Below the pieces are notes generated by a model, which saw only the letters and a list, made by a program, of their open reading frames with translations, searched no databases and was not told the origin of the DNA. A program made the position numbers and the translations under genes. Positions 18,549 to 57,069 of a DNA stretch of 64,000 nucleotides are shown one piece after another; the first letter of the stretch is position 1, and each line of letters begins with the position of its first letter. This DNA comes from a plasmid. The DNA lies in the sequence record NZ_CP018188.1; one strand, written 5' to 3'.

Positions 18549-19175
18549 ATGACAGGAATCACTCAAGGTCTCTACTATATTGAAAAGGTTCACCAATATA
18601 ATACGAATATTGGTGGCTTTCCGTCAGACTTAATCAATGATCGAATTTCAGCGATTATTGCTAGTAACAAGACGGATATGCAACAAAGTTTGCGATTCAG
18701 ACCCGTTAGAAACGTGGTTTTGAATCGAGAGGGTGTATCTAATCTTCCACCTATTGAAATCCCGTTTGAATCTTCACTTTATTATGAAGTTGAAGAAATA
18801 AATCCGGGGTTATCCAAGCTAGTTGTTACAGCGGAACATGCCGCAGCCTTTCAAGAATCGGATATTCGCATGTTGGAAGCTCGCTTAACTATGTTACAGC
18901 GTGCCAAAGAATGTGGAAATTTTACGACAAGTAATTTTCCGAGTCGTTTTCCAAAGGAAGCAAGAGATGATTTAAGTCAGTTAGATCTTCTAGCTTGGGA
19001 AACAAAAGATATGCCAACATATCTTTTCTGTTTGATGGAATCAGCATTAGATAGTTACCGGGGATTTTATTCCTTGAGAGACCTAATGGAGGATGCTAAC
19101 GGCACCCTTCAGCAAGGTTATGATAAAGCTGTTTACTGGCTCTATAGTGGAGTCAAAGGACAATATGAATATTAG
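18549..19175 (+). CDS. Hypothetical protein; its 3' third is duplicated at 54721
   Basis: RBS aaggagaaaaacaATG. The ORF extends back to 18525 (TTG). Confidence 0.5.
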   Translation: MTGITQGLYYIEKVHQYNTNIGGFPSDLINDRISAIIASNKTDMQQSLRFRPVRNVVLNREGVSNLPPIEIPFESSLYYEVEEINPGLSKLVVTAEHAAAFQESDIRMLEARLTMLQRAKECGNFTTSNFPSRFPKEARDDLSQLDLLAWETKDMPTYLFCLMESALDSYRGFYSLRDLMEDANGTLQQGYDKAVYWLYSGVKGQYEY

Positions 19176-19186
19176 AAGGAGAAAAA

Positions 19187-19348
19187 ATGACTAAACATAG
19201 TTATACAGCAACATTTAAGCGTAAAGATGAAACCGTCTTTACGAAAACGTTTCTAGCTTCAGATTTGTTTGAAGCTGATGACCACGCATTGCAGTTTGCT
19301 ACTAAGCGAGATATTCTCTATCTCGACTTAGGGCCTGCAGTTCAGTAA
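19187..19348 (+). CDS. Small conserved protein (53 aa) at the element terminus
   Basis: RBS gaaggagaaaaaATG. Paralogue at 54953..55111 and a fragment at 34860-34935. Confidence 0.5.
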   Translation: MTKHSYTATFKRKDETVFTKTFLASDLFEADDHALQFATKRDILYLDLGPAVQ

Positions 19349-19349
19349 A

Positions 19350-19386
19350 AAGTTAAGCTACGTATTTTATACGTGGCTTTTTTAAA
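19350..19386 (+). terminator. Rho-independent terminator
   Basis: Stem aagctacgta/tacgtggctt followed by a T run. The same hairpin recurs at 34936-34972. Confidence 0.6.
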
Positions 19387-19550
19387 AGGGTTAAACGATC
19401 TACTGGTTTTTATCGCTTGCCAAAAACTCGTGCTTTGGTGGCATCCTTATTGAAGAAATTAAACCCGAAATAGTTGATAAAAAAGAAATAAAATGCTAAC
19501 ATTTAATAAAAGTGTTAGCATTTTATTTCTTACGAAAGGATAGTGCTATT

Positions 19551-20141
19551 ATGAATAATATTGAAATGATTATGGCTTCTTTTCAACAACATCAAGGATT
19601 TTTGACCTTTCAACAAGTACTTGAAGAGAAATTACCTTACAAAATGTTGCTGAGAATGATTGATGAGGGACAAGTAGAGGTTGAAGGAAAGGGGTTATAT
19701 CGCCTCCCTGATACTTATCTGGACGAATGGTTCGTGGCGCAGCAACGTTTTTCAAAAGGAATTTTTTCTTTAGAAACAGCTCTTTGGTTACATGGATTAT
19801 CACTAACAGTTCCCTTTGAGATGACCATGAGCTTCCCTTATGGAACCAATACAAAAAATGTTAAATCAGAAGGTATACGTCCGATAGTTCTTCGTTCTTA
19901 TTACGATGAAGGAATTATTGAGCTTGAGCGACAAGTGGGTCAGAAGATTAAGGTGTACGAGCCGGAGAGGGTTTTAGCAGAGTGTTTAAGACCAGTTTAT
20001 CATGTTGATGTTCAAGTTATAGCTCCTGCATTTAAGATGTATTTTCAAAATCACAAAGTTAACTATTCAAAACTGTTTCACTATGCACAGTTATTCAAGG
20101 TGACTAACAAGTTGCAATCTTACATGGAGGTATTAACCTAA
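19551..20141 (+). CDS. abiEi: AbiEi-like antitoxin or transcriptional regulator
   Basis: About 200 aa, immediately upstream of and overlapping the DUF1814 gene, the typical AbiEi position. Confidence 0.55.
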   Translation: MNNIEMIMASFQQHQGFLTFQQVLEEKLPYKMLLRMIDEGQVEVEGKGLYRLPDTYLDEWFVAQQRFSKGIFSLETALWLHGLSLTVPFEMTMSFPYGTNTKNVKSEGIRPIVLRSYYDEGIIELERQVGQKIKVYEPERVLAECLRPVYHVDVQVIAPAFKMYFQNHKVNYSKLFHYAQLFKVTNKLQSYMEVLT

Positions 20142-20977
20142 TGTTTTCCAATGCAAATAGCTTTAAGGCAAAGATTAAGAATATGGCTAAGGATAGAGGT
20201 ATTCCTGCCCAGCAGCTTCAGCAAAACTTCCTGATTGAACAGGTATTGAAATTGATTGCTAAAAGTTCCTATAAGGACTCTTTCATTGTTAAAGGTGGCT
20301 ATCTAATAGGACAGTTGATAGGACTAGATAAGCGAACGACAATGGATTTAGATGTGACGCTTAAAGGGACTACACTTAGCCAAGAAAATCTGATTGCCAT
20401 CTTCGAAGAGATTCTTTCGGATTCGGATGATGTCTTTTCATTTGAAGTAGATAAACTAGAGCCGATTCGCCAAGATGACGAATACGGGGGATTTTCTCTA
20501 AAACTCAATGCTACATTTGATACTTTAAGAGAGGTTGTTTTCATCGACATTACAACGGGTGATAAGATTACACCTAGAGAAATTACTTATTCGATGCCAT
20601 CTCTGTTTGCAAATGAAACCATTGAGGTTTGGACTTATAATTTGGAAACTGTCCTAGCTGAAAAATTGGAAACGATCATTAGCCGAGGAGTAGCATCAAC
20701 ACGTCCTCGTGATCGTTATGACCTTTTTACCTTGTATCATATCAGAAAAGATGAGATAAATTTCGATGTGTTGCGTGAAGCCCTGGCCAATACTGTAGAA
20801 AAACGAGGAAGTAAAGAGGCTATTGATATTTGGGAAAGTCAGCTAAATAGTATTGAGACTGATGAGTATCAAAAGCAACTTTGGACACGTTATCAAAGAC
20901 AATTCAAATATGCACAAGATATTTCTTTTGAGAAATCAGTTCAGATTGTTAGAGAACTCATGACAACTATTATGTAA
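20141..20977 (+). CDS. abiEii: AbiEii/AbiGii-family nucleotidyltransferase toxin (DUF1814)
   Basis: N-terminal KAKIKNMAKDRGI...FIVKGGYLI...RTTMDLDV is typical of DUF1814. Confidence 0.65.
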   Translation: MFSNANSFKAKIKNMAKDRGIPAQQLQQNFLIEQVLKLIAKSSYKDSFIVKGGYLIGQLIGLDKRTTMDLDVTLKGTTLSQENLIAIFEEILSDSDDVFSFEVDKLEPIRQDDEYGGFSLKLNATFDTLREVVFIDITTGDKITPREITYSMPSLFANETIEVWTYNLETVLAEKLETIISRGVASTRPRDRYDLFTLYHIRKDEINFDVLREALANTVEKRGSKEAIDIWESQLNSIETDEYQKQLWTRYQRQFKYAQDISFEKSVQIVRELMTTIM

Positions 20978-31716: not shown

Positions 31717-32966
31717 TTGATTTGTTTAAAACAATTGGAATCCTCTCTCTTTTTTTATTTCAAAGCTTTGTTATTTGGATTTATTTACTACATTTTTTTG
31801 TTGTCAGAATACCTAAAATGAGATTTTATTGTTTTATTTTTTGTATTTATTTTGTTGGTAGAACATCAATAACAGTGGATCAGACCACGTTTATTGATTT
31901 AAAAATTTTTTCTTTATTTTGTACTTTCTTGATTCTTTTCTTCTTTTTATCTGGGGAGGTAATGAAAAAAGTATTTCATTTCTTATTTCTGACTTTTTGG
32001 TTCTTGATTCAAGAGGATATTGCAGGTTTATTATTTAATCATACGCCAGAAACTAAAGTATTTGTTATTCTTTTCGTTCAATTTTTATTGATGTTGTTGA
32101 CTCTTTTCTTCATATTGGGATTGAAGCGTTTCAAAGTAGATAATTTAATAGGTCTGAATAAAATGGAATATGGCATTCTTTCAGTTACTCCATTTTTTTC
32201 TATTATTCTGCTGTTACATAAGGTAGCGCTGCCTCTAGTAAAGGTTCTTGCATTTGATAGTTATTTGTGGTTAATAAATATTGTTATAATCGTGCTTTAC
32301 AATTACTTAAGTGAAAAAAACTACAATATTATCAAAAACAAAGTAGCTTTTGATGAAAATAGTATGACTAGTGAAATTATAAAGCAAGAAAAGGAGCTAG
32401 CCGTTCTTAGACATGATTTGAAAAATATTGTTTCTTCAATAGATTTTTATGCTGATAATAGTGATTATGAAAATATTAAAGTAATAACTCGAAAGATACT
32501 GGGACAGGAAGTATTTAATCGTAAGATTACAGGTTGTATACCTATTGATGCTGTGTTAAATCAAAAAATATCTAAGATGAAAAAAGATGGTATTCTACAT
32601 AATTTAGATTTACAGGTTCCATATAATTTAGACTTAAGTACTATTGCGATTGATTCATGTGCCATTCTTGGGAATCTTCTTGATAATGCTATAGAAGAAA
32701 TTGAACGTAATAGCTTAGAAGAACCGATTGAAATAGCTCTGCGTTTTAAAAATAATAAATTAGTTTTCAAAGTTGCTAATCCCATCAGAACTTCTAATGT
32801 AGATGTTAATTATGATGGAATGAAGTCTATTAAATCTCCTAACAGACAAGGTATAGGAATAAAAAGTAGTTATGATAGAGTCATGAAATTAAAGGGGCAC
32901 CTAAACATTACTGTTCAGTCAAATCAATTTATTGTACTAGTTGTGATTCCGTTAAGGATGAAATGA
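31713..32966 (+). CDS. Multi-TM sensor histidine kinase (AgrC/BlpH-like, GHKL ATPase)
   Basis: About six N-terminal TM helices, HDLKN H-box and [12 protein letters not shown]-box. Overlaps the RR stop (ATGA). Confidence 0.7.
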
Positions 32967-33782
32967 GTTTTTATCAAATCTATATTTAAACTCTGCTAAT
33001 AGGCAGAGTTCTTTATTTAAGATCTATCGTACTATCAATTCTCAACAGAAAGTAAATATCTTGCTTTTGGGCTAGGAAGTTAGTAGTTATGTGGTAAACT
33101 GAGTCATAGGAATAAATCTCTTTCTAGTAATATTTCGCAACTCTACTATAACGGATTTATTCCTTTTTGTGTTTACCCAACTTATTTTACACTACCAAGA
33201 AATAGACCTTTGCAGTGAATATTAGGAGAAATATTAATCAAAAATGCCTCACTGATTAAGTGAAGCATTTTTGATTACATAGAAGATACTGTATTGTCTA
33301 TTTTGGGACTTATTGAAATGATTTCAGGTTATTTTAGTTTAGTTTTTGGAATCAAGAACGGCTTTAAATCAATATTTCTGACGTTAACAAGACTTAAAAA
33401 ATCATGAAACAAGTCGTAAAGAGATATAATATGGATTGAGCTCCCTTTATCTATAACAGAAATTGGTAGTGAAAATTAAGTTGTGTAAACACAAAATAAT
33501 TGACAGTATCTTGTTGGTTGAAAAGTCTTTACAAATTTGGTAAAATTGCTATAGAAACGATAATATTGTTATTCATGGGGATATCTCACCATGATAATGG
33601 AACGTCGTGGAATATCAACATGACGTTTTAACGCAAGGGGGGAAAACTCTTGCGTTTTTTGTTTTGAAAGTCTGTTATAGTTAAATAGACAAAATGTCTT
33701 TAATAAAGAGTCCCCCCAACCCAAGATAAATGTATGATGATAGGTATGGTAAAAAAATAAATGAAGCTAGGAAGTTAAGAAT

Positions 33783-34280
33783 ATGGAAATCAAAGATCAC
33801 TTTGGTGTATACGGAGTCTGTCTTCAAGACGGGGAACTGCTCTGCATTGAGAAAACGAGAGGACCTTATCGGCATCGTTTTGATTTACCGGGTGGTAGTC
33901 AAGAACTAGGTGAGGGACTGACAGAAACTCTCAAGAGAGAAGTTCTGGAAGAGACGGGCTATATGCTTAGCGATTATTCAAACCCTAGAATCTATGATGT
34001 GCTGGTTCAAGAAGATGGGCAAGACTTTGTCGTACACCATATCATGGCCTTTTATGATATAGTACTTGACTTGGAATACTCTCAAAAATCCCTTCCTCAT
34101 GAAGTTCTTGATGGAAGCAATGATTCAGCAAATGCCATTTGGCTTCCGATCGAGCAGATTACCGAAGAAACTGCCTCACCCATAGTATTGAAGGTGAAGG
34201 CAGAGTTACTAGGATTTCCAGAATTAGAACTGACAAGCTATAGAAATTGGAAGGTAAAAGAAAAGAAGGAGCAATCATGA
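33783..34280 (+). CDS. NUDIX hydrolase
   Basis: Nudix box GGSQELGEGLTETLKREVLEETG. Confidence 0.8.
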   Translation: MEIKDHFGVYGVCLQDGELLCIEKTRGPYRHRFDLPGGSQELGEGLTETLKREVLEETGYMLSDYSNPRIYDVLVQEDGQDFVVHHIMAFYDIVLDLEYSQKSLPHEVLDGSNDSANAIWLPIEQITEETASPIVLKVKAELLGFPELELTSYRNWKVKEKKEQS

Positions 34281-34717
34281 CACCGCAAGAAATGTGGAAT
34301 GCCTACAAGCAAATCAACCCCTCTATTGGAGATGAGATAGACGCCTGGGCTTTTGGTGTGGAACCAGACCTTTTAGCGGATTTGGTGTTTACAGGTGAAA
34401 AAACAGCAACTGCCTCAGCCTGCGACCTCTATGCAGTAGGGGACGAACCCCTTCCACAAGAAGGAACCTTTGATGTGATTTTAGACAGCCAACATCAAGC
34501 TATCTGCATTGTCGAAATCACCAAGGTTTCTGTTCAGCCTTTCAATCAAGTGTCAGACGACCATGCCTTTAAGGAAGGGGAAGGAGATAAGTCCCTTGCC
34601 TATTGGCGGCAGGTTCACGAGGAATTCTTCACGAAGTGGCTGGAGAAAGCGGGCCTGACTTTTACACCTGACAGCAAGGTTGTATTAGAAGAATTTCGTA
34701 AGGTTTATCCATTATAG
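34277..34717 (+). CDS. ASCH-domain protein
   Basis: RBS aaggagcaatcATG. A partial paralogue lies at 56296-56559. Confidence 0.5.
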   Translation: MTPQEMWNAYKQINPSIGDEIDAWAFGVEPDLLADLVFTGEKTATASACDLYAVGDEPLPQEGTFDVILDSQHQAICIVEITKVSVQPFNQVSDDHAFKEGEGDKSLAYWRQVHEEFFTKWLEKAGLTFTPDSKVVLEEFRKVYPL

Positions 34718-34850
34718 AACACACTCTCCTTCTTGGAGAGTTTTTTGATCTGGATCTTATTTTCCAAAAGGGTTAAAAAATGATGTAAGCGATATTATAC
34801 AGAAGCACAGGAGCAGTACGACCGCAGGGCTAAACAAAAAGGTCGGAATT

Positions 34851-34972
34851 CTTGTTTGAAGTTGATGAATACGCCTTGGAGTATGATACTAAGCGAGATA
34901 TTTTCTATCTCGTCTTAGGGCCTGAGGTTCAGTAGAAAGTTAAGCTACGTATTTAATACGTGGCTTTTTTAT
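34851..34972 (+). repeat. Fragment of the element terminus (3' end of the 53-aa gene plus terminator), copy 2 of 3
   Basis: About 88% identical to 19262-19386. Confidence 0.7.
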
Positions 34973-34989
34973 AAAGGAGATAAATTAAT

Positions 34990-35165
34990 GCGGCTTGATT
35001 TAAAAATTGACAGAGATTTGGCTTTTGGACAGGCTCTTTCGATATACCATATCATAAAAAAGAGCTACTTAAGTTTTCGGAAGAACAGTTGTCATCGGCA
35101 CAAGAGACAACTCCAGAAGAGTTGGATGATATAGCATTACATTGGGAATTTATCCAAACCTAAGC
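34990..35165 (+). pseudogene. Degraded paralogue of the 110-aa gene at 56626..56958
   Basis: Nucleotide similarity to 56700-56960 with frame disruptions (..DRDLAFGQAL..SSAQETTPEELDD..). Confidence 0.4.
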
Positions 35166-35277
35166 TAATGCTTACTGATAGTAGAAAACAAATAAGCACT
35201 TAAAATTTTTAAAATTTGATATGATACCTCTTAAGTAGACAAGGTAAATACCTAAAATCTACTTAAGAGGTATTTTT

Positions 35278-35955
35278 ATGTCTAGAAGAGAAAGATTCAC
35301 CCCATACGAGAAAGAACAAGCTTGTCTCGATTATATTAATGGTAATCGTTCCAGATCTGAGATATGTAATTGTCTCCATATTTCCACAAGGACGATTCAA
35401 GATTGGGCTGCCATCTATAAAAAATATGGGATTTTAGGATTCACAAAGAAAACAAAAAACCGTTCCTATTCAAAAGAATTTAAAATGGAACTTGTAGAAA
35501 AATGTATTAGTGGTGAGGCTTCATCTATTGATTTAGGTCATCAGTATGATATTTCTTCAGGTCTTTTAAGAAAGTGGATTAGGATGTATAATGCCAATAT
35601 AGAACTTAAGGATTACAATCCAAAACGGGAGGTCTATATGGCAAAAGCAAGACGTAAAACCACTATTGATGAACGCAAAGAGATTGTCAACTATTGTATT
35701 GAACACAATCGCAATTATAAGGAAACGGCGTCACTTTATGATGTTTCTTATAGCCAAGTATACTCGTGGGTAAAGAAGTATGATAGTGGTGGCGAAAAAG
35801 GTTTAATTGACAAAAGGGGGCATCACAAAATAGATGATGAGCTTGATGAATTAGAGCGTTTACGAAGAGAAAATGTGCGCTTAAAACGTCAGTTAGAAGA
35901 AAAGGATATGGCTGTTGAACTCTTAAAAAAAGTGAAAGAATTCGGAAGGATGTGA
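35278..35955 (+). CDS. IS3-family transposase OrfA (HTH)
   Basis: Helix-turn-helix N-terminus and a leucine-zipper-like C-terminus. Confidence 0.75.
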   Translation: MSRRERFTPYEKEQACLDYINGNRSRSEICNCLHISTRTIQDWAAIYKKYGILGFTKKTKNRSYSKEFKMELVEKCISGEASSIDLGHQYDISSGLLRKWIRMYNANIELKDYNPKREVYMAKARRKTTIDERKEIVNYCIEHNRNYKETASLYDVSYSQVYSWVKKYDSGGEKGLIDKRGHHKIDDELDELERLRRENVRLKRQLEEKDMAVELLKKVKEFGRM

Positions 35956-36917
35956 GGCTAGGCAAACAGCGCCACGAATCAAAATACTTAGCGATCGAAG
36001 ACTTCAACACCAACAAAGGGTGGAGCATTAGCTGGATGTGTCATCAGCTCGGCATTACGAGGTCTGCATTTTATAAATGGAAACATAGAATAGTTCCAGA
36101 ACAAGAACAATTAAACAGCGAAATTGCGGAATTAATTAAAGAATATGACGAACGTTTTTCACACATCTTGGGATACCGAAGAATGACCGATTGGATCAAT
36201 CATTTCAATCATACGAATTACTCAAGAAAGAGAATTCACCGAATTATGAAAGTACTCGATATCCACGCTTTTATCCGTAAGAAAAAGAAAAAATACAAGA
36301 CTGTTAAACCTGAAGAAACTGCAGAAAATAAGTTGGCAAGAAACTTCTATACAACTGCTCCGAACAAAAAATGGGTAACAGATGTTACAGAGTTTAAGAT
36401 TCCTAACTCTCATAAGAAACTCTATCTTAGTGCCATACTTGATTTATATGACCGCTATCCTATTGCTTTTGTCATAAGTGGTCGAAATGACAATCGGCTG
36501 GTCTTCAAAACATTTGACAAAGCCATTGAAAAAAATCCCGCAGCGAAGCCTATATTTCACAGCGATAGAGGGTTTCAATATACCAATAAGAACTTTCAAA
36601 AAAAGCTGAAAGATACTGATATGATTCAATCCATGTCAAGAGTGGGCCATTGTATTGATAACGGACCAATAGAAGGTTTTTGGGGAATTATAAAATCGGA
36701 AATGTATCAGATGTATGAGATTTCAGATGAGGCCTCCCTCCGATATGCCATCAAAGACTATATCCGATTTTACTGTCAAGAGCGTCCACAAAGTAGGTAT
36801 GACTGTAAAACGCCTTTGGCAGTAAGAAACGCTGCCTTATCATCAGAACATCCTTTGTCATACCCAATCGCTAAGAATAACAAAATTGAAAAGTACAAGT
36901 CTAAGTGGTCTGCATAA
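35952..36917 (+). CDS. IS3-family transposase OrfB (DDE/rve integrase core)
   Basis: WVTDVTEF, HSDRGFQYT and E in GPIEGFWGIIKSE. Lies in the -1 frame relative to orfA. Confidence 0.8.
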   Translation: MRLGKQRHESKYLAIEDFNTNKGWSISWMCHQLGITRSAFYKWKHRIVPEQEQLNSEIAELIKEYDERFSHILGYRRMTDWINHFNHTNYSRKRIHRIMKVLDIHAFIRKKKKKYKTVKPEETAENKLARNFYTTAPNKKWVTDVTEFKIPNSHKKLYLSAILDLYDRYPIAFVISGRNDNRLVFKTFDKAIEKNPAAKPIFHSDRGFQYTNKNFQKKLKDTDMIQSMSRVGHCIDNGPIEGFWGIIKSEMYQMYEISDEASLRYAIKDYIRFYCQERPQSRYDCKTPLAVRNAALSSEHPLSYPIAKNNKIEKYKSKWSA

Positions 36918-37046
36918 AAAAACAGCCGTACATTTATTATGTACGACTGACCTTCAAAAACAGACACTTTTTTAGATATTTAACCTGTCTACTTGACAGG
37001 GGGCATATCAATTTGAGTGCTTTTTTTGTTACTTTTTGGTATCTTT

Positions 37047-37054
37047 TACGAATA
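37047..37054 (+). promoter_or_regulatory. cin-box (ComX/SigX -10 element TACGAATA) with an upstream T tract
   Basis: ttttTACGAATAga lies 32 nt upstream of the ATG at 37086. An identical arrangement occurs at 57030. Confidence 0.5.
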
Positions 37055-37085
37055 GATATATTGTAGAAAATAGGAGGTATATAAA

Positions 37086-37271
37086 ATGATGACTTATGAT
37101 GAAGTAATGGAAGCGATAGAAAGAGGGTTTATCAAGGGAGATAAAATCAGCATTATTCGACGAAATGGCAAGATCCATGATTATGTTTTACCAGGAGAGA
37201 AAGTAGAACCTGGAGAAATAGTGGAAAAAGAGGACTTAGATGTTGTTCTTGAAGAGTTGAAGGAGTTCTAA
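37086..37271 (+). CDS. 61-aa hypothetical protein, putative late-competence (ComX-dependent) gene
   Basis: RBS aggaggtatataaaATG. Paralogue at 57070..57252. Confidence 0.55.
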   Translation: MMTYDEVMEAIERGFIKGDKISIIRRNGKIHDYVLPGEKVEPGEIVEKEDLDVVLEELKEF

Positions 37272-37370
37272 AATGATGCAGCTTTTAAGTAAGATGATTC
37301 TTATGGTCTCGCAAAAGGGATACAAGAGTGATAAAATAGCCTCAATTATTTAAAATGGAATGACTGCGTA

Positions 37371-38735
37371 CTATAAGGTAGGTGACTCAATAGGAAGGAT
37401 AATTTCTGTTTGAAAATATTCTCCTTGTTCACTTGTGATTATCATACTACCTCCATGTAAATCAACAATTTGGTTAGAAATTTTTAGTCCCATACCACTT
37501 CTGCGAACTCCAGAAATATCAAAATTAAATTCCTCAATTTTATTAATATTTTTAAGTCTATCTGTAGAAGTTCCAATTCCATTATCACGTATAATAACTG
37601 AAAATTTATTACGGGAAATATAGTTAAGGACAATCTGAATATTACAACCAGAAGGGTTATGCAATACAGAATTATAAATGAGATTGTGAATAACTCTAGA
37701 CATCAAAGATTTTTCAATGTACATTTTTTTACCCAACAATTTATTATCAGGAATAAACTCAAAATTAAAATCATTCCAAATCTCTTGATTAATAATTTGT
37801 ATGATTATTTCCTTAAAGAAGGGTATAATGTCTGTTATTTCTTGATTTAATTTTAAATTACCGTTTGTTAGTCTAGCGAATATGTTGAGATCGTTTAGCA
37901 AATTTTGAATATAGTGACTCTCAATCAGCGTAGGTTTCAAATTTTTTAATAGGTCATCATTGTCTGTTTTTTCAATAGCTAATGATGCATTAGCCACGAT
38001 AACTGAGAGTGGGGTTTTGATGTCATGAGCTATTCCAGAAATCCAATTCTCTTTGAATTCTTCATTTTTACGTAGTTTTTTGTTAGCAGAGTTAACCGCT
38101 AAAGTTAATCTATCTAATTCTTGAACAGAATTTACCTGTTTGTTTAAACCGACAGGTAATTTACCTATTGCGTTAATAATTGGCTGGATGTTGCGATTTA
38201 AGAAAGTAACACTATAAAGGTATAGGAATAGGCAAAATAGGCAGTTAACAAATATGATAACTAAAATTAAAATCGGAAAAATTTGAATTCTCTTTAGATC
38301 AAAGAAATTATTTCCGTATCTAATGATACTTTCTTTTGGAAATGCAATTATATAAATATCTTTTTGTTCTTTTTTTATTTGAGTGAATATTGGATAGTCA
38401 TCTAAATAATAACGTGAAAACTTAATGACATCGGCATAATCAAATTGTGTTTTTATATTTTTAGGTTTTTTGATATTAAACTTTTCATTTCCACTTTTTT
38501 GATCAAGAATCATGACCCATAAGTTGTGCTTTTTAATCAGTTTTTTTGCAGTTTGATTAACTTTATATGTTCCATTTGATGGGGTGATGTTCGAAGATAC
38601 ACCTTGTATGATATCTATAGGAGATTGTTGGCTACGGATAAAGTTGGTTGTAGCTACTAATAGAACAAAATCGATAAATATTATGGTAAGAAAGGCGAGA
38701 ATAAATTTTAATATACCTTTTTTGAAAATATTCAT
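37371..38735 (-). CDS. lanK: Sensor histidine kinase (LanK-like)
   Basis: Two TM helices, H-box IAHDIKTP and a HATPase domain (GMGLKI). Divergent from the lanthipeptide genes. Confidence 0.75.
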   Translation of the reverse strand: MNIFKKGILKFILAFLTIIFIDFVLLVATTNFIRSQQSPIDIIQGVSSNITPSNGTYKVNQTAKKLIKKHNLWVMILDQKSGNEKFNIKKPKNIKTQFDYADVIKFSRYYLDDYPIFTQIKKEQKDIYIIAFPKESIIRYGNNFFDLKRIQIFPILILVIIFVNCLFCLFLYLYSVTFLNRNIQPIINAIGKLPVGLNKQVNSVQELDRLTLAVNSANKKLRKNEEFKENWISGIAHDIKTPLSVIVANASLAIEKTDNDDLLKNLKPTLIESHYIQNLLNDLNIFARLTNGNLKLNQEITDIIPFFKEIIIQIINQEIWNDFNFEFIPDNKLLGKKMYIEKSLMSRVIHNLIYNSVLHNPSGCNIQIVLNYISRNKFSVIIRDNGIGTSTDRLKNINKIEEFNFDISGVRRSGMGLKISNQIVDLHGGSMIITSEQGEYFQTEIILPIESPTL

Positions 38736-38751
38736 AGAGGACTCCGTAAAT

Positions 38752-39450
38752 TCAGATAACTAACTTATAACCCAGCCCTTTGACTGTAATGAGGTGACGT
38801 GGTTTTGATGGGGATAATTCTATCTTCTCTCTTATATTACGAATATGTACCATTAAGGATTTTTCATATCCGAAACTATCTATTCCCCAAATAGTATCGC
38901 AGATTGCTTCTGTTGACACAATATAGTTTTTATTGGTATATAGTTTTCTTAGAATCTGTATTTCAGTTGGAGTTAGCGATAAATGCTGTTCCTCTTTTTT
39001 TACACTAGCATTATTTAAATCAATGATACAAGAAGTTAAAGTTATTAATTCTGATTCTCCTTTATATGCTCTCCTCAGTAAAGCAATTATACGATAGATT
39101 AAAGTTTTTGGAAGAAATGGTTTTGTGACAAAGTCATCACCACCTGAATCTAATCCTTTAACTTCATCATCTGGATTATTTTTGGCTGTTAAAAATAAAA
39201 TTGGTATATCAGAAGTTTTTCTGATGTACTGAGCAAGTAGATAACCTTCTCCATCCGGCAACATTACATCTAGGATAATGAGATCTATTTTAGAAATAGA
39301 AAAAATATCTATTCCTTCGCTAATACTGTAAGCATTACTAATATTTTTAAATCCCCTGCTCACCAAAACTTCTTTAATAGATTTACTAAGTGAAACATCA
39401 TCGTCTACTATTAATATCCGTTTGTTTAATAGCTGCGCTTCGAAATTCAT
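38752..39450 (-). CDS. lanR: OmpR-family response regulator (LanR-like)
   Basis: Receiver domain (ILIVDDD) plus a winged-helix C-terminus. Start set at MNFEAQ, which has a GGGAGG RBS. The ORF extends back to 39495. Confidence 0.75.
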   Translation of the reverse strand: MNFEAQLLNKRILIVDDDVSLSKSIKEVLVSRGFKNISNAYSISEGIDIFSISKIDLIILDVMLPDGEGYLLAQYIRKTSDIPILFLTAKNNPDDEVKGLDSGGDDFVTKPFLPKTLIYRIIALLRRAYKGESELITLTSCIIDLNNASVKKEEQHLSLTPTEIQILRKLYTNKNYIVSTEAICDTIWGIDSFGYEKSLMVHIRNIREKIELSPSKPRHLITVKGLGYKLVI

Positions 39451-39707
39451 ATACGCGCCTCCCATAAAATTTATTTTAATTATACCATAAACCATCTTAC
39501 TTTAATAAACTGTAGGCAGATAGGAAATTTAAATTCTTAAAAATAATTTTAAGATTTCTTTACTCTGTCTTAACCTAGTCTTCGTAAAATTTACTTGTAA
39601 CAAAGATACTTAGTCTCAAAATAATAACGGATTATCAATAGCTTTGAATAGTCATGTGCTAGAGGTAACTTAGCAGATTATTCTTAAATCTTAGAAAGAG
39701 GAAAAAT

Positions 39708-39857
39708 ATGAAAAAAGATGTAGTTATCGAATCAATTAAAGAAGTAAGTCTTGAAGAGCTTGATCAAATTATTGGAGCTGGGAACGGTGTGTTTAAAACT
39801 ATCTCACATGAGTGTCATCTTAATACCTGGGCATTTCTTGCTACATGTTGCTCATAA
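39708..39857 (+). CDS. lanA: Class II lanthipeptide precursor (lacticin-481 group, SA-FF22/macedocin-like)
   Basis: 49 aa: leader ...EVSLEELDQIIGA(G) and core NGVFKTISHECHLNTWAFLATCCS. Confidence 0.85.
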   Translation: MKKDVVIESIKEVSLEELDQIIGAGNGVFKTISHECHLNTWAFLATCCS

Positions 39858-39885
39858 TAATTATTAATTTAGAGAGAGGAAAATT

Positions 39886-40035
39886 ATGAAAAAAGATGCA
39901 ATTATCGAATCAATTAAAGAAGTAAGTCTTGAAGAACTTGACCAAATTATTGGAGCTGGGAACGGTGTGTTTAAAACCATTTCACATGAGTGTCACTTGA
40001 ATACTTGGGCATTTCTTGCTACATGTTGCTCATAA
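39886..40035 (+). CDS. lanA: Second, near-identical lanthipeptide precursor
   Basis: Differs from copy 1 only in leader residues 5-6 (DA for VV). Core is identical. Confidence 0.85.
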   Translation: MKKDAIIESIKEVSLEELDQIIGAGNGVFKTISHECHLNTWAFLATCCS

Positions 40036-40281
40036 TTTTTGATGACTAAGTATCTACATTGTTATATAAAGAAGAGGGAAACCTCTTTTTTTTATATGAT
40101 GAATTTTGTTTATTTATTCATTCATGTAGTTCATATAATTTATGACTATATATTAAATTAGAAATTTATCTTGACTTTACTTTGCCTTAAACTTGTCTTT
40201 ATGTTGCAATTTTAGAATCAATTTATAAAGAAAAATAATTTCGAGCCAGACTCGACATGAAATTTAATGAGGTTATAGACT

Positions 40282-40440
40282 ATGAAAAATAATAAAATTC
40301 ATCTAGAAGCTTTGGAAGCGTTACAAGAACTAAAAATGGAAGAAATAGATAATCTTTTGGGCGGAGCTGGTCATGGAGTAAATACTATTTCTGCTGAATG
40401 TCGTTGGAATAGCTTACAAGCTATCTTTACCTGTTGTTAA
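40282..40440 (+). CDS. lanA: Third, divergent lacticin-481-group lanthipeptide precursor
   Basis: 52 aa: leader ...EIDNLLGGAG and core HGVNTISAECRWNSLQAIFTCC. Confidence 0.75.
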   Translation: MKNNKIHLEALEALQELKMEEIDNLLGGAGHGVNTISAECRWNSLQAIFTCC

Positions 40441-40459
40441 TTTTTAGAAAGGTAAGACA

Positions 40460-43240
40460 ATGAATCATCAAGAACAATTATATAGTCAGTTTAATAAATT
40501 TCCTAAAGTTTTTATTGAAAAGAAAATACCTGAAGTTCTTAATGAGGATGTTAAGGTACTAAAACAGGTTGAGAAAAATATATCAGACTATTATCGATCT
40601 ACATTAATTTATTTGATTAACGAAAAACGTATTGAAGGGAAGTTAATTGGCGATACAGCTGAGCTACGATATGATTATTTTAATAATGTATTATGTAAAA
40701 ATGGTGATATTTTAGAAGAAATAGAGGAAAGATTTCCGACTATTAGTCAACGTGTCATCATCAGTATAGAGCAGTACCTTGATTTGCTTAAATGCGTAAA
40801 AAAACATTTTTCAATAGACTTTTCAATATTGAAAAAAATAAAATTTATTTGCTCAGATGATGAATATCCTAATTTAAACAATCTTGATATTAAAGTAACA
40901 GGTGATATTCATAATGGAAGTGGAGTTTGTATTTTATCTTATGAGGGACAAAAATTAGTTTATAAGAAAAAATCGTCAAAACCAAATCATCTTTTAAAAA
41001 AATTGGATAATCAAGTTAGCAAGTATTTAAAAAAAGAGATTCAGTTTGTACCTGACTTTTTAGATAGGGAAGGTTACTTTTGGGAAACTTTTATAGACAG
41101 TAAACCAGTTTGTTCGATTGATGAAGCGAAAGAGTTTTATAAAAGAATGGGTTATCTTGTAGCATATGCTTACATTTTAAATATTTCTGACTTGCATTTC
41201 GAAAATCTTATTTCACATAATGTTCAGCCTATCCTAGTAGATGCTGAGACAGTATTTTCTGTAAGTCCGTATGAAACAGTAGCGGATAATAATGCTACTT
41301 TAGAGATAATTCGGGATAGCAGAAATTCAGTACTATCTACAGGATTGTTACCTGTGTCTGAAGCCGATAAAATTTTTGGAGGAGATACTAGTGGAGTTTT
41401 AGGGGGCACTCTTATTGGTGAAGCAAGAGTGCTGATAAACCAGAATAGAGATGATATACATGTTGAAAAACAAAAATATAAAACAGAAAATCAAGCTCAC
41501 TTACCTTATCGAGTAGGACAAACGGGATTAAGGAATTATTTAAATGCAGAAGATTACATTGATTCCATAAAAATGGGCTACCTAGAGTTAGGTCATTTTA
41601 TTATTGATAATAAAGAATTTCTAAAACAACTTTATTTAAGTTTTAGTGATTTAAAAACAAGAGTTTTATTTAGAAATACTAGAGATTACAGTTTAGTCCG
41701 TCAATTGTTGACTTCACCAATTTATTGTAATCAGTCAAATGTTTTATTTGAAAAGATGTCTGATAAATTATCAAATTTTGAAAGTTTGAATTTATGTGAA
41801 TCTGAAGAAAAACAATTACTTAATATGAATATTCCATATTTTTATTCTCGTATTAGTGATGTCGACATTAAAGATAATGAGACTATAGTATGGAAATTAA
41901 AAGAATCTGCTTTAACCGAGGCATTAAAAAAATTGGAAAGATTTGACTTGAGCATAATGAAGGAACAAGTCGATTTAATTGAATTTTCTATTAAAACACC
42001 AAATGCTTTGTATAGTACCGAGCTTCAAGAGTCGTACAAAAAATTTAATAATTTAAATTCAGATAAAGAGGTTTTGTTTGCTGGTATCAATACGCTAGTT
42101 GATACCATTTTGAATAATGAGAAATGCTCTAAATTAGATGGAAGTACAAATTGGTTAACGCTTAAAGTTACAGATTATGATGCATTTAAACTTGAACCTA
42201 TGGATCTATCTATTTATGAGGGAATTTCTGGATTATCAATTGCATTATGTGAAGTCTACGATTTAGTGAATAGTGAAAGACAGGAGAAAATTTATAATTG
42301 TATACATAGAATTTTTCTAACTCTCTCAAACTCTTACGATAGTGTGCAAAATCAATCGTACTACGTTGGAAAATTAGGTATTCTTTCTGCATTGAAAAGA
42401 ATACAGTTGATTACGGGACAAAAAATCTCAAAGTCAATTTTAGATAGAAATAAGGATTACAGTTTAGATTTGAATGTTTCGAGTGCAGATTTTCTTTCAA
42501 GTTTTCCTAATGAGATTGTTGCTCTGTATAGAAGTGATTTGTCAATTAAAAATCTTCGACAAGCCTTAGATAAATTAATTGATTTAAAGGTTAATTATGA
42601 GAATTATATTGCTTGGGATAATTTGGAATCAAATAATGTTAGTTTAGCACATGGAAATCTAGGAATAGAATTGGCATTACACTATATTGCTGGAATTTTG
42701 GATAATTCTAAAGCCCTAGAGATGTTATTTCAAGCGAATAACTTTGATAATCGCCAAAAAATATCTCAAGGTTGGATAGATAAAAGAAATAATTCAACCA
42801 GTGCTAATTGGTGTCATGGCTCAACAGGAGTTCTTGTTGCAAGATTAGCTCAACTAGAATTGGATAAAAAATTTCAGCTAATTCCTAGTGCTAGAAGAAA
42901 AGAGTTAGAAGCTGATATTAGACATGCAGTATCTCAAATAATTGAAGTTGGATTCAATATGACCAATTTTTCTATTTGTCATGGAACTAGTGGAAATTTG
43001 TTAGCACTTAACTATTATCGTTCATATCTTAAAGGACACGAAGCACAAGAGTTGGAAAAAATTTTGGAAATTGAGTATAGGAAGTTGCATTCATTTGGTT
43101 TAGAAAATGGGTGGATGTGCAGTTTTAATACTAAATATAATGTTTATGGGATTATGAATGGTTTGTCAGGGATATTATATTCTACAGCCAAGTATCTAAA
43201 AAGAGATAATTCTCTAGACCTTCTAATCCCTACTCTATAA
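40460..43240 (+). CDS. lanM: Class II lanthipeptide synthetase (dehydratase plus LanC-like cyclase)
   Basis: 926 aa. The C-terminal cyclase has the conserved motifs (NWCHGSTG, CHGTSG). Confidence 0.85.
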   Translation: MNHQEQLYSQFNKFPKVFIEKKIPEVLNEDVKVLKQVEKNISDYYRSTLIYLINEKRIEGKLIGDTAELRYDYFNNVLCKNGDILEEIEERFPTISQRVIISIEQYLDLLKCVKKHFSIDFSILKKIKFICSDDEYPNLNNLDIKVTGDIHNGSGVCILSYEGQKLVYKKKSSKPNHLLKKLDNQVSKYLKKEIQFVPDFLDREGYFWETFIDSKPVCSIDEAKEFYKRMGYLVAYAYILNISDLHFENLISHNVQPILVDAETVFSVSPYETVADNNATLEIIRDSRNSVLSTGLLPVSEADKIFGGDTSGVLGGTLIGEARVLINQNRDDIHVEKQKYKTENQAHLPYRVGQTGLRNYLNAEDYIDSIKMGYLELGHFIIDNKEFLKQLYLSFSDLKTRVLFRNTRDYSLVRQLLTSPIYCNQSNVLFEKMSDKLSNFESLNLCESEEKQLLNMNIPYFYSRISDVDIKDNETIVWKLKESALTEALKKLERFDLSIMKEQVDLIEFSIKTPNALYSTELQESYKKFNNLNSDKEVLFAGINTLVDTILNNEKCSKLDGSTNWLTLKVTDYDAFKLEPMDLSIYEGISGLSIALCEVYDLVNSERQEKIYNCIHRIFLTLSNSYDSVQNQSYYVGKLGILSALKRIQLITGQKISKSILDRNKDYSLDLNVSSADFLSSFPNEIVALYRSDLSIKNLRQALDKLIDLKVNYENYIAWDNLESNNVSLAHGNLGIELALHYIAGILDNSKALEMLFQANNFDNRQKISQGWIDKRNNSTSANWCHGSTGVLVARLAQLELDKKFQLIPSARRKELEADIRHAVSQIIEVGFNMTNFSICHGTSGNLLALNYYRSYLKGHEAQELEKILEIEYRKLHSFGLENGWMCSFNTKYNVYGIMNGLSGILYSTAKYLKRDNSLDLLIPTL

Positions 43241-43266
43241 TCAGCGATAGGAAGGAAACTTTATAC

Positions 43267-45339: not shown

Positions 45340-45445
45340 AAAATATCTTGATCTATCTTAATGTTATCTTTAAGATGATAAAGTAGAATTACATTGTAAA
45401 GAAAGGAGTAATCCTGGCTAAAAGGATTACAAGGAAATTAATGAG

Positions 45446-46354: not shown

Positions 46355-46355
46355 G

Positions 46356-47099: not shown

Positions 47100-47100
47100 A

Positions 47101-48440: not shown

Positions 48441-48502
48441 ATGTGATAAAAAAGCTGATGAATTTATATTTCATCAGCTTTTTTGAGAGCTTAATTTGAC
48501 TA

Positions 48503-57037: not shown

Positions 57038-57069
57038 AGATATATTGTAGAAAATAGGAGGTATATAAA

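What the first reader, a model, noticed from the sequence alone, without database searches (positions are those of the whole stretch)
18960..19390. Element-terminus segment present three times, consistent with tandem accretion of integrative elements
The 3' part of the 216-aa gene plus the 53-aa gene and terminator (18960-19386) recur at 54721-55115 (~90% identity). The last ~120 bp recur at 34851-34972 (~88%). Homology breaks right after the small-gene stop (consensus cagtaGAAAGTtaAAGCT), as expected for an att-type crossover. The three copies partition the window into successive islands: AbiE plus RiPP, lanthipeptide plus ABC plus APH, and hydrolase plus GmrSD.
Basis: seen in the sequence. 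Interest (0 to 1): 0.65.

Follow-up and report, generated by a model that had tools for sequence, protein, structure and literature searches.

The report
Repeated boundary genes in megaplasmid cargo region
The three repeated segments are real, but they are leftover copies of two small backbone genes marking where blocks of cargo genes (bacteriocins, defence, resistance) were stacked by recombination inside a Streptococcus salivarius megaplasmid, not attachment sites of integrated elements.

Summary
The repeat is confirmed. 18953-19340 matches 54719-55106 (90%, E 1e-150) and 19265-19389 matches 34852-34977 (89%, E 8e-40). The att-site, integrative-element reading is not supported.

The whole window is syntenic with eight circular Streptococcus salivarius-type bacteriocin megaplasmids. 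It contains no integrase or tRNA gene; the only transposases are insertion sequences. The three copies have three different right-hand ends, and the left end of copy C is a clean non-homologous join.

In related plasmids the canonical order is g208, g53, terminator, orf86, terminator, CIN-box, paratox (prx), cargo, backbone. Three plasmids have g53 directly next to prx. This window carries about 41 kb of cargo cassettes between g53 and the backbone.

Copy C is closer to the full-length copy of plasmid pSsal-YU10 (95.4%) than to copy A of its own plasmid (90.2%). It was therefore imported from another plasmid lineage, not duplicated in place.

The conserved recombination anchor appears to be a roughly 290-bp prx island with a ComX promoter box. 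Its 3' allele stays linked to the downstream cargo while upstream contexts reassort, as in the paratox cassette model for S. pyogenes prophages.

This is an ordinary mosaic scar. The plasmid-borne tandem array of prx-headed cassettes is modestly new.

The parts
It is the last large gene of the conserved SSB-PDDEXK-ERF-RadC-GNAT block.
   Evidence: ORF list. Called as 208 aa in all related contigs. No Pfam, PHROG or NCBIfam match. There are 81 homologue clusters, all at least 81% identical and only on S. salivarius-type contigs of 193 kb or less.
19187..19348 (+). g53: 53-aa backbone gene, intact, copy A.
   Evidence: the exact protein occurs on 23 read contigs, always after g208.
18953..19389 (+). 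Repeat copy A: 3' 223 bp of g208, g53 and the terminator hairpin (about 19355-19385). The AbiE cassette starts right after it.
   Evidence: RNAfold of the hairpin gives -12.8 kcal/mol.
19390..34721 (+). Cargo block 1: AbiEi/AbiEii, DUF6994, CAAX protease, rSAM/SPASM RiPP cluster with ABC transporters, LytTR two-component system, NUDIX, ASCH.
   Evidence: Pfam. Sub-blocks are present or absent in different plasmids. For example, 22218-33415 is absent from pSAL813 and pSsal-NU10.
34852..34977 (+). Repeat copy B: 3' 83 bp of g53 (a pseudogene remnant) plus the terminator. It is followed directly by its natural neighbour orf86.
   Evidence: The same ASCH - psi-g53 - terminator - orf86 - prx arrangement occurs in pSAL813, pSaLI10, pSsal-NU10 and the S. 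equinus plasmid. Similarity upstream of 34852 is not significant.
34988..35219 (+). orf86 short allele, degenerate: one A fewer than copy C in a poly-A run and an internal deletion.
35220..37009 (+). Intact IS3-family insertion sequence (orfA 35278-35955, orfB 35952-36917), inserted into the terminator hairpin just upstream of the prx-1 promoter.
   Evidence: Pfam. It is absent from contig L037, which is otherwise 99.99-100% identical.
37012..37271 (+). prx island 1: remainder of the hairpin, CIN-box TACGAATA (37047-37054) and paratox gene (37086-37271).
   Evidence: Pfam PF24313, E 3e-24. CIN-box. Conservation profile.
37340..54718 (.). Cargo block 2: two-component system (minus strand), lacticin-481-type lantibiotic locus (LanM, LanT, immunity ABC), IS3 orfA remnant, ABC transporter, APH phosphotransferase, DNA-alkylation-repair protein.
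   Evidence: Pfam. 37340-47889 is 99.2% identical to pSsal-YU10. 51764-54719 is 95.8% identical to the FDAARGOS_192 plasmid, and that homology ends exactly at 54719.
54719..55126 (+). Repeat copy C: truncated 3' 223 bp of g208 (54719-54941) plus an intact 52-aa g53 allele (54953-55111). Its left edge is an illegitimate junction. At its right edge a different hairpin follows.
   Evidence: It is 100% identical in 8 independent metagenome contigs. It is 95.4% identical to the pSsal-YU10 primary copy but only 90.2% to copy A.
55127..56290 (-). Cargo block 3a: alpha/beta hydrolase (55185-56006) and a 79-aa ORF (56060-56299), which overlaps the junction at 56291.
   Evidence: Pfam. Junction sequences.
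56291..56563 (+). Truncated 3' remnant of the ASCH gene (87% to 34449-34721). Its left edge is an illegitimate junction.
56626..56958 (+). orf86, the '110-aa' gene (110 aa from TTG 56626; called as 86 aa from ATG 56698 in related contigs). Full-length copy.
56970..57252 (+). prx island 2: terminator hairpin (56970-57009), CIN-box (57031-57038) and paratox gene (57070-57252).
   Evidence: Terminator scan. CIN-box. Pfam E 9e-26. Matches GAS Prx 6CKA at E 1e-15 over residues 1-58.
57549..60251 (+). Cargo block 3b: GmrSD restriction enzyme and a GyrI-like protein, linked to prx-2.
   Evidence: Pfam. 56911-60997 is 92% identical to pSsal-NU10.
60407..64000 (+). Conserved backbone resumes here (377-aa, 132-aa and 140-aa genes, leading to the Clp-type ATPase and VirB2 in relatives).
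   Evidence: Homology of at least six relatives begins at 60407-60416. Annotation.

Best explanation
The window is part of a large Streptococcus salivarius-type bacteriocin megaplasmid (pSsal family, 126-236 kb). These plasmids have a hypervariable cargo region between two conserved backbone blocks. The left block is SSB, PD-(D/E)XK nuclease, ERF, RadC, GNAT ... g208, g53. The right block is the 377-aa gene ... Clp-type ATPase, VirB2.

The canonical boundary is g208, g53, terminator, orf86, terminator, CIN-box, paratox (prx), then cargo. The three repeated segments are copies of this boundary, in different states of truncation. They were left behind when cargo blocks from different plasmid lineages were joined end to end.

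- Copy A is the resident boundary. An AbiE cassette is inserted right after its terminator.
- Copy B is an old remnant (3' end of g53 plus terminator). It still sits in front of orf86 and prx-1 and is shared with several other plasmids.
- Copy C is the 3' part of the boundary of a second, YU10-like plasmid lineage. It was joined by non-homologous recombination to the end of the APH/alkylation-repair cassette. It brought its own cargo (hydrolase, prx-2, GmrSD, GyrI-like) and the right backbone.

Shown: the plasmid context, the canonical order, the differing breakpoints, the foreign origin of copy C, and the conservation and reassortment around prx.

Inferred: the events were recombination between co-resident or incoming related plasmids, equivalent to an unequal crossover or a cointegrate followed by deletion. 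Homologous exchange occurred in the roughly 290-bp prx island and illegitimate joins elsewhere. The copies are scars, not functional sites. As direct repeats (47-bp and 100-bp perfect identity runs) they could still mediate deletion or excision of the intervening 35.8 kb or 20.0 kb.
For: Plasmid identity:
- All three parts of the window match the same eight circular Streptococcus plasmids of rep_cluster_199 at 88-97%.

Canonical order and simplest forms:
- pIKMIN-B501, pSsal-YU10 and the ATCC 25975 plasmid have g208-g53 about 110 bp from prx.
- pSAL813, pSaLI10 and the S. equinus plasmid have g53-terminator-orf86.
- Contig L004 goes from DUF6994 to prx to backbone. Relative to it the window has 34.5 kb extra.

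Breakpoints:
- The right-hand breakpoints differ among A, B and C.
- The left junctions of C (54719) and of the ASCH remnant (56291) are clean joins with no homology.

Foreign origin of copy C:
- Copy C is 95.4% identical to the YU10 primary copy but 90.2% to copy A.
- It is 100% identical, with the same neighbours, in 8 independent assemblies.

Multiple copies elsewhere:
- The FDAARGOS_192 plasmid has three prx and two ASCH copies in the same region.
- Contigs L034 and L036 have three prx genes each.

The prx island:
- Mean pairwise identity is 0.83-0.99 from -110 to +170, against 0.2-0.6 in the flanks.
- All 19 unique copies have the CIN-box.
- The prx 3' allele co-varies with the downstream cargo while upstream contexts reassort.
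- The paratox-based cassette recombination model is described for S. pyogenes prophages (PMC6224593, PMC11754733).

No site-specific recombination machinery:
- No integrase or tRNA gene in the window.
Against: - No recombination intermediate or excised circle has been observed; the mechanism is inferred from comparative anatomy only.
- No single independent contig spanning A, B and C was retrieved. A-to-B is covered by L002/L037 and B-side-to-C-to-backbone by L021-L026, so the full three-copy arrangement rests on overlapping evidence plus the window.
- The short motif (C)AGTAGAAA recurs at the g53 stop and just after the orf86 stop. It sits exactly where g53 is fused to the prx terminator in YU10-type plasmids. 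A short-sequence-directed process therefore cannot be fully excluded for that particular junction.
- A site-specific recombinase encoded elsewhere on the plasmid, outside the window, was not searched for.
- The functions of g208, g53 and orf86 are unknown.
Confidence: 0.78

Rival explanations
1. The segment is the terminus (att-type site) of an integrative element. Three related elements integrated one after another by site-specific recombination at the same core, giving a tandem array.
For: - There are three direct copies at cargo-block boundaries.
- A short shared motif CAGTAGAAAGT lies at the g53 stop in B and C, with one mismatch in A.
- Tandem accretion of integrative elements is known in streptococci (own knowledge: the ICESt1/ICESt3/CIME work in S. 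thermophilus).
Against: - The locus is a circular plasmid.
- There is no integrase, relaxase or conjugation module between the copies and no tRNA gene.
- The breakpoints are not shared.
- B continues into its natural neighbour, and C's left edge truncates a gene at a non-homologous join.
- The motif is not enriched in the window.
- The backbone continues past copy C.
- The arrangement is fixed and identical in many samples.
Confidence: 0.04
2. Intramolecular segmental duplication. Copies B and C arose by duplication of copy A within this plasmid (replication slippage or unequal sister exchange) and then diverged.
For: - The copies are direct repeats in the same orientation on one replicon.
- Duplications are common in plasmid variable regions.
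Against: - Copy C is much closer to the primary copy of another plasmid (YU10, 95.4%) than to copy A (90.2%).
- Copy A is 100% identical to L002/L003 and copy C 100% identical to L021-L028, so there is no sign of gradual in situ divergence.
- B-type remnants are shared with pSAL813, NU10 and the S. equinus plasmid, so they predate this plasmid.
Confidence: 0.08
3. IS-mediated assembly. The cargo blocks were brought in as composite transposons or by IS-driven cointegration, which is the mechanism suggested in the literature for these megaplasmids. The g208-g53 copies are passengers.
For: - The literature suggests bacteriocin loci are acquired via transposition of IS elements (PMC3681767).
- The window holds an intact IS3 (35220-37009) and an IS1595 unit (25100-26823).
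- An IS3 orfA remnant lies at 48140-48433.
- An IS-end-like repeat occurs at 8089-8239, 48075-48225 and 60287-60392, the last just before the backbone resumes.
Against: - Neither edge of copies A, B or C abuts an IS end.
- The two intact IS are recent simple insertions, absent from an otherwise identical contig.
- They do not flank blocks as pairs.
- Block boundaries at prx are in conserved homologous sequence.
Confidence: 0.1

Closest known systems
Paratox (prx)-linked cassette exchange at the end of Streptococcus pyogenes prophages (model of Aziz et al. 2005, as described in PMC6224593 and PMC11754733)
   Same: - A roughly 60-aa Prx homologue (PF24313; E 1e-15 to GAS Prx 6CKA) with a CIN-box (TACGAATA) promoter lies immediately next to accessory cargo.
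- prx is a conserved island in otherwise variable DNA.
- The prx 3' allele stays linked to the downstream cargo while the other side reassorts.
   Different: - Here it is on a conjugative-type megaplasmid, not at the attR end of a prophage.
- There are two to three prx copies in tandem, each heading a block.
- The cargo is bacteriocin, defence and resistance genes rather than toxins.
- The CIN-box ends 31 nt before the ATG, versus within 21 nt in GAS.
- The salivarius group was not listed among prx-bearing groups in PMC6224593. RefSeq already labels these genes 'Paratox', and S. salivarius satellite prophages also carry prx.
Streptococcus salivarius bacteriocin megaplasmids (pSsal-K12/M18 family; here pSsal-NU10, pSsal-YU10, pSAL813, pSaLI10, pIKMIN-B501, the ATCC 25975 plasmid and two FDAARGOS plasmids)
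   Same: - 88-99% nucleotide identity and synteny across backbone blocks.
- The same lacticin-481-type locus as pSsal-YU10 (99.2%).
- These plasmids are known as transmissible repositories of varying bacteriocin loci.
   Different: - No listed plasmid has this exact combination of blocks.
- Published explanations invoke IS transposition (PMC3681767), not duplicated boundary genes or prx islands.
- No paper in the searchable library combines salivarius, megaplasmid and paratox.
Tandem accretion of integrative elements (ICE/CIME arrays with attL-attI-attR)
   Same: Direct repeats delimit successive blocks of accessory genes.
   Different: There is no integrase, no shared core, no chromosomal target and no mobility genes in the blocks, and the repeats are truncated genes with unequal ends.
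Integron cassette arrays
   Same: A tandem array of promoter-proximal cargo units is separated by a recurring short conserved element.
   Different: - There is no IntI integrase and no attC-type imperfect inverted repeats.
- The recurring unit is a protein-coding gene with its own promoter.
- The units are multi-gene blocks of 3-20 kb.

Membership tests
att site / terminus of an integrative element (tandem accretion) | A tyrosine or serine site-specific recombinase is encoded next to one of the repeats. | tested here: not met
   Pfam scans of all ORFs of at least 70 aa in the window found only IS3 (rve) and IS1595 (DDE) transposases, and no Phage_integrase, Resolvase or Recombinase domains.
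att site / terminus of an integrative element (tandem accretion) | The same core sequence and the same breakpoint occur at every junction. | tested here: not met
   Right ends: A at 19389 (after the terminator), B none (continues into orf86), C at 55126. Left ends: C at 54719 (mid-g208, illegitimate join), B at nt 79 of g53.
att site / terminus of an integrative element (tandem accretion) | Integration into a chromosomal target (often the 3' end of a tRNA or housekeeping gene), with empty sites in relatives. | tested here: not met
   The whole window is plasmid. There is no tRNA. The 'empty' forms in relatives are plasmids with g53 adjacent to prx.
att site / terminus of an integrative element (tandem accretion) | Excised circular forms carrying a reconstituted att site. 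| not testable with these tools
   This needs PCR or long reads on the strain.
Paratox-linked cassette recombination | A Prx family protein is encoded adjacent to accessory cargo. | tested here: met
   PF24313 at E 3e-24 and 9e-26. Matches 6CKA at E 1e-15. The cargo directly downstream is the lantibiotic locus for one copy and GmrSD for the other.
Paratox-linked cassette recombination | A CIN-box (SigX/ComX) promoter lies just upstream of prx. | tested here: met
   TACGAATA at 37047 and 57031, ending 31 nt before the ATG. It is present in all 19 unique copies from plasmids and contigs. Expression was not tested.
Paratox-linked cassette recombination | prx is a conserved island at a recombination hot spot, and prx and its cargo stay linked. 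| tested here: met
   Conservation profile. Reassortment table. 100-bp perfect identity between prx-1 and prx-2. The sample is 19 unique copies and no formal linkage statistic was computed.
Paratox-linked cassette recombination | Location at the right (attR-proximal) end of a prophage. | tested here: not met
   The context is a plasmid. The g208-g53 segment has no match in 50,697 phage records. The prx region matches phage records only at 73%, at the ends of satellite prophages.
S. salivarius bacteriocin megaplasmid (rep_cluster_199) | Synteny and high identity to complete circular plasmids of the family across backbone blocks. | tested here: met
   and the annotated regions.
S. salivarius bacteriocin megaplasmid (rep_cluster_199) | The family's replication initiator or replicon is present. 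| not tested
   The replicon lies outside the 64-kb window.
Integron | An IntI integrase with attI and attC sites. | tested here: not met
   There is no integrase. The inter-block elements are genes and terminators.

The most novel reading that the evidence does not exclude
The roughly 290-bp prx island (terminator, ComX-box promoter, 5' part of paratox), together with the g53/orf86 boundary genes, acts as a portable homology anchor. This makes the megaplasmid a recombinase-free cassette-capture platform tied to competence. Blocks headed by prx would be swapped, stacked in tandem or looped out by homologous recombination between plasmids, or with transforming DNA. The plasmid's own ERF/SSB/PD-(D/E)XK module, encoded just upstream, might help. 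The ComX-induced Prx would meanwhile damp host competence. That would extend the paratox cassette model from prophage toxins to plasmid-borne bacteriocin, defence and resistance genes.
Probability: 0.3. Interest if true: 0.6.

Novelty: new member of a known kind. Interest (0 to 1): 0.33.

Why it matters
S. salivarius megaplasmids carry the lantibiotic loci that underlie commercial oral probiotics (K12, M18). They are transmissible between strains (PMC3681767).

Their cargo region appears to be built from blocks bounded by a few conserved small genes and a competence-regulated paratox island. Knowing this gives a concrete, testable account of how bacteriocin, phage-defence (AbiE, GmrSD) and resistance genes (APH, an Lnu-like nucleotidyltransferase) are stacked and exchanged. 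It also predicts where deletions will occur: between the direct repeats.

For the scan itself, the value is mainly corrective. This is not a chromosomal array of integrative elements.

Tried and rejected
- Exact look-up of the 216-aa (TTG-start) protein found nothing, and my first corrected coordinates were out of frame. The gene is the 208-aa ORF 18549-19175.
Relatives had to come from PLSDB and from exact-protein look-ups.
- Pfam, PHROGs and NCBIfam gave nothing for g208, g53, orf86 or several neighbouring small genes, so their function stays unknown.
- I tested whether copy B extends to a whole degenerate g53 gene. A global alignment of the 5' half scores no better than 58 of 500 shuffles, so I claim homology only from 34852.
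- I tested whether AGTAGAAA could be a recombination core. There are 5 hits against 5.5 expected. Four of them lie in the homologous copies, so they are not independent. I rejected it as evidence for a site. It is kept only as possible microhomology at the g53|prx-terminator fusion in YU10-type plasmids.
- The simple terminator scan did not call the copy A hairpin. RNAfold gives -12.8 kcal/mol with a T-run.
- CIN-box hits at 18602, 26097 and 38838 are within chance expectation and were not pursued.
- An assembly artefact was considered and rejected. The A-to-B and C-to-backbone arrangements recur in independent assemblies.
- A phage origin of the g208-g53 segment was rejected: no match in the phage collection.
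Full report
**1. Observation**

Self-comparison of the window confirms the reported repeats.
- A (18953-19340) matches C (54719-55106) at 90.2% over 388 bp, E 1.5e-150.
- A (19265-19389) matches B (34852-34977) at 88.9% over 126 bp, E 8e-40.
- B matches C at 78% over about 90 bp.

Copy C has only the 3' 223 bp of g208, without its start, plus an intact 52-aa allele of g53. Copy B has only the last 83 bp of g53 plus the terminator.

- the 3' end of an ASCH gene (34449-34721 ~ 56291-56563);
- a small gene, here called orf86 (the '110-aa' ORF; 34968-35219 ~ 56677-56999);
- a paratox gene with its promoter (37012-37264 ~ 56995-57248, 92%).

**2. What the locus is**

Pfam annotation of the window gives this gene order:
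- a replication-relaxation protein and a TraF/thioredoxin-like protein;
- SSB, a PD-(D/E)XK nuclease, ERF, RadC, GNAT, g208, g53;
- AbiEi/AbiEii, DUF6994, a radical-SAM/SPASM RiPP cluster with ABC transporters and a LytTR two-component system, NUDIX, ASCH;
- copy B, orf86, an IS3 element, paratox;
- a two-component system and a LanM/LanT lantibiotic locus with immunity ABC genes, an IS remnant, an ABC transporter, APH, a DNA-alkylation-repair protein;
- copy C, an alpha/beta hydrolase, an ASCH remnant, orf86, paratox;
- GmrSD, a GyrI-like protein, and further conserved genes.

All three thirds of the window match the same eight complete circular plasmids. These come from S. salivarius, a Streptococcus sp. 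and a strain labelled S. equinus. They are 126-236 kb, belong to rep_cluster_199 and match at 88-97% identity. The window is therefore part of an S. salivarius-type bacteriocin megaplasmid, not a chromosome.

g208 has 81 homologue clusters in 5.8 billion proteins. All are at least 81% identical and lie on contigs no longer than 193 kb. It is a megaplasmid-restricted gene of unknown function, with no Pfam, PHROG or NCBIfam match. There is no tRNA gene. The only recombinases are IS3 and IS1595 transposases.

**3. Comparative anatomy**

In pIKMIN-B501, pSsal-YU10 and the ATCC 25975 plasmid, g208-g53 is followed within about 110 bp by paratox. In pSAL813, pSaLI10 and the S. equinus plasmid, g53 and its terminator are followed directly by orf86.

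The canonical boundary is thus g208, g53, terminator, orf86, terminator, CIN-box, prx, then cargo. The backbone follows, and homology of at least six relatives resumes at window 60407-60416.

The distance between g53 and the backbone ranges from a few kb in pSAL813 and pIKMIN-B501 to 40 kb or more in pSsal-NU10 and the FDAARGOS_192 plasmid. In this window it is 41 kb. Metagenome contig L004 goes from DUF6994 almost directly to prx and the backbone. Relative to it the window has 34.5 kb extra.

Multiple copies of the boundary genes are common:
- pSAL813, pSaLI10 and the S. equinus plasmid have g53-terminator-orf86 twice, flanking DUF6994-NUDIX-ASCH (with AbiE as well in the S. equinus plasmid).
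- The FDAARGOS_192 plasmid has three prx and two ASCH copies.
- Contigs L034 and L036 have three prx genes each.
- In pSsal-NU10, g208 is truncated at nucleotide 566 of 627, and about 40 kb including an NRPS cluster lies between it and the rest of the boundary.

**4. The junctions**

Aligning the g53 ends from 14 copies shows three different right-hand outcomes.
- A (with L004, L011, FDAARGOS_192): homology to the canonical form runs through the terminator and ends at TTTTTTAAAAGGG (19389), where the AbiE cassette starts.
- B: there is no breakpoint, and the sequence continues into the RBS and ATG of orf86 as in the canonical form.
- C: homology ends at ...CAGTAGAAAGT (55126), before the terminator, and a different hairpin follows.

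In YU10-type plasmids the g53 stop is fused at (C)AGTAGAAA to the 3' untranslated tail of orf86. That is a possible 8-bp microhomology deletion.

The motif itself is not enriched in the window (5 hits, 5.5 expected).

The left edge of C is a clean join. The APH/alkylation cassette is 95.8% identical to the FDAARGOS_192 plasmid up to base 54719. From the next base the sequence is g208, with essentially no shared bases at the join. The ASCH remnant at 56291 is likewise abruptly joined.

So there is no common core or common breakpoint.

**5. Origin of the copies**

Over the 388-bp segment, copy C is 95.4% identical to the full-length primary copy of pSsal-YU10. It is only 90.2% identical to copy A of its own plasmid. 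It is 100% identical, with identical neighbours (ABC, APH, alkylation repair | 'g208-g52 | hydrolase ... prx, GmrSD, GyrI-like, backbone), in eight independent metagenome assemblies. Copy A is 100% identical to L002 and L003.

Copy C was therefore imported from another plasmid lineage rather than duplicated in place.

The B-type remnant is shared with four other plasmids, so it is older.

Contig L037 (the same record as L002) is 99.99-100% identical to window 22051-46077, except that it lacks two insertion sequences. The A-to-B arrangement is thus independently confirmed, and the two IS are recent simple insertions.

**6. The paratox island**

Both prx genes (61 and 60 aa) match Pfam Paratox at E 3e-24 and 9e-26. 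The copy tested, prx-2, matches the solved S. pyogenes Prx (6CKA) over its full length at E 1e-15.

A CIN-box TACGAATA, the SigX/ComX promoter element described upstream of prx in S. pyogenes (PMC6224593), ends 31 nt before each ATG. It is present in all 19 unique prx copies collected from plasmids and contigs.

A conservation profile across those copies shows an island from about -110 to +180 with mean pairwise identity 0.83-0.99. The flanks drop to 0.2-0.6.

The variable 3' end of prx co-varies with the downstream cargo:
- ...EKEDLDVVLEELKEF goes with the lantibiotic two-component system;
- ...TEEDVETVLEELRE goes with GmrSD.

Each downstream class, however, is found with two or three different upstream contexts.

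prx-1 and prx-2 share a perfect 100-bp stretch covering the promoter and the first 53 bp of the gene. A and C share 47 bp.

This is the pattern described for S. pyogenes prophages. There prx lies at a recombination hot spot and travels with the adjacent toxin as one cassette (PMC6224593, PMC11754733).

**7. Mechanism proposed**

Shown:
- the plasmid context;
- the canonical order;
- unequal breakpoints;
- the foreign origin of C;
- the prx island with reassorting flanks.

Inferred:
- Cargo blocks from different megaplasmid lineages were joined in series by recombination between co-resident or incoming plasmids.
- This used homologous exchange in conserved anchors (the prx island, g53-terminator-orf86) and occasional illegitimate joins.
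- One illegitimate crossover would give the observed A ... B ... | C ... backbone order in a single step. It would join the end of the alkylation-repair cassette of one plasmid to mid-g208 of a YU10-like plasmid.
- The copies are scars. As direct repeats they predict deletions of 35.8 kb (A x C) and 20.0 kb (prx-1 x prx-2).
- The plasmid's own SSB/PD-(D/E)XK/ERF genes, just upstream, are candidate helpers. This is speculation.

**8. Rivals**

- The att-site reading fails on every defining feature that could be tested (see the membership table).
- In situ duplication is contradicted by the identity pattern.
- IS-mediated assembly is the mechanism suggested in the literature (PMC3681767). It may explain boundaries near 48.1 kb and 60.3 kb, where IS remnants lie. 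None of the g208-g53 copy edges abuts an IS end, and the two intact IS are late insertions.

**9. Known or new**

These are already known:
- mosaic, transmissible S. salivarius megaplasmids carrying varying bacteriocin loci;
- paratox-linked cassette exchange in prophages;
- the 'Paratox' label, which RefSeq already gives these plasmid genes.

I found no paper in the searchable library that combines salivarius, megaplasmid and paratox. PMC6224593 lists the pyogenic, bovis and suis groups but not the salivarius group as prx carriers. S. salivarius satellite prophages in the phage collection do carry an annotated paratox, at 73% identity to the plasmid copy.

The finding as given is an ordinary recombination scar in a plasmid variable region. 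The tandem prx-headed blocks on a plasmid are a modest extension of a known model.

**10. Verdict**

- Observation: confirmed.
- Interpretation: partly supported. Accretion of blocks holds; att sites and integrative elements do not.
- Novelty: new member of a known kind.
- Interest: 0.33.

Noticed in passing
window 25100-26823: A 1.7-kb IS1595-family unit is inserted in the radical-SAM/SPASM RiPP maturase gene, splitting it into 24670-25419 and 26549-27643. The unit carries a 347-aa DDE_Tnp_IS1595 transposase (25699-26742, minus strand) and a 187-aa Aminoglyc_resit/Lnu-like nucleotidyltransferase (25181-25744, minus strand). The maturase gene is intact (409 aa) in contigs L002/L037, which are otherwise 100% identical. 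An 8-bp target duplication is implied. From memory it resembles the lnu(C)-carrying ISSag10/MTnSag1 of S. agalactiae; this was not verified.
   Followed up: partly
window 35220-37009: An intact IS3-family element (orfA/orfB) is inserted into the terminator hairpin between orf86 and the CIN-box of prx-1. It is absent from the otherwise identical contig L037. It may uncouple prx-1 from upstream transcription.
   Followed up: partly
window 37047-37054 and 57031-57038: A CIN-box TACGAATA (ComX/SigX promoter element) ends 31 nt upstream of both paratox start codons. It is conserved in all 19 unique plasmid and contig copies examined. This suggests competence-induced expression of a plasmid-borne ComR inhibitor in a naturally competent species.
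   Followed up: partly
window 33106-33168 (+): The only Rfam hit at gathering threshold is RF02592, S. pyogenes antisense RNA Spy392987 (68.7 bits, E 3e-11). It lies between the LytTR two-component system and the NUDIX gene.
   Followed up: no
window 8089-8239 (+), 48075-48225 (+), 60287-60392 (-): A repeat of about 100-150 bp (77-83% identity) is present three times. The middle copy overlaps the start of an IS3-type orfA remnant (48140-48433). The last copy lies just before the conserved backbone resumes. These are probably IS-end remnants at block boundaries.
   Followed up: no
window 21184-21230, 33464-33510, inverted 33165-33197: A 47-bp sequence (91% identity) recurs upstream of the DUF6994 gene and upstream of the NUDIX gene, with a partial inverted copy nearby. 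It may be a shared promoter or operator, or a cassette boundary. Separately, 8980-9046 ~ 33666-33731 (90%).
   Followed up: no
window 39691-39858 and 39869-40036: A tandem duplication (93%) covers the lantibiotic precursor genes upstream of LanM. pSsal-YU10 annotates three lacticin-481-family precursor genes at the same place.
   Followed up: no
window 11582-11805 and 11960-12183: Adjacent paralogous small genes (106 aa and 122 aa, 81% DNA identity) lie just upstream of the plasmid SSB gene.
   Followed up: no
L033-L036 (positions 189-497) versus window about 8300-9100: Some related plasmids carry a further paratox gene about 0.6 kb upstream of the conserved 430-aa gene, that is, left of the SSB block. 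The window has a DUF6994 gene there. In several plasmids the relaxase block (window 1-5.2 kb) lies 20-27 kb from the SSB block. A second variable region therefore lies on that side.
   Followed up: no
L016/L017 (pSsal-NU10, NZ_MN480762.1): In this plasmid g208 is itself truncated, at nucleotide 566 of 627. About 40 kb, including an NRPS cluster and DUF5945/DUF5965 genes, lies between it and the rest of the boundary (AbiE, DUF6994, ASCH, prx, GmrSD).
   Followed up: partly
phage records MK448524.1, MK448527.1, MK448528.1: Satellite prophages Javan537/540/541 of S. salivarius K12, NU10 and YU10 end with an annotated paratox gene that is 73% identical to the plasmid copy. Strains with these megaplasmids can therefore carry chromosomal prx as well.
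   Followed up: no
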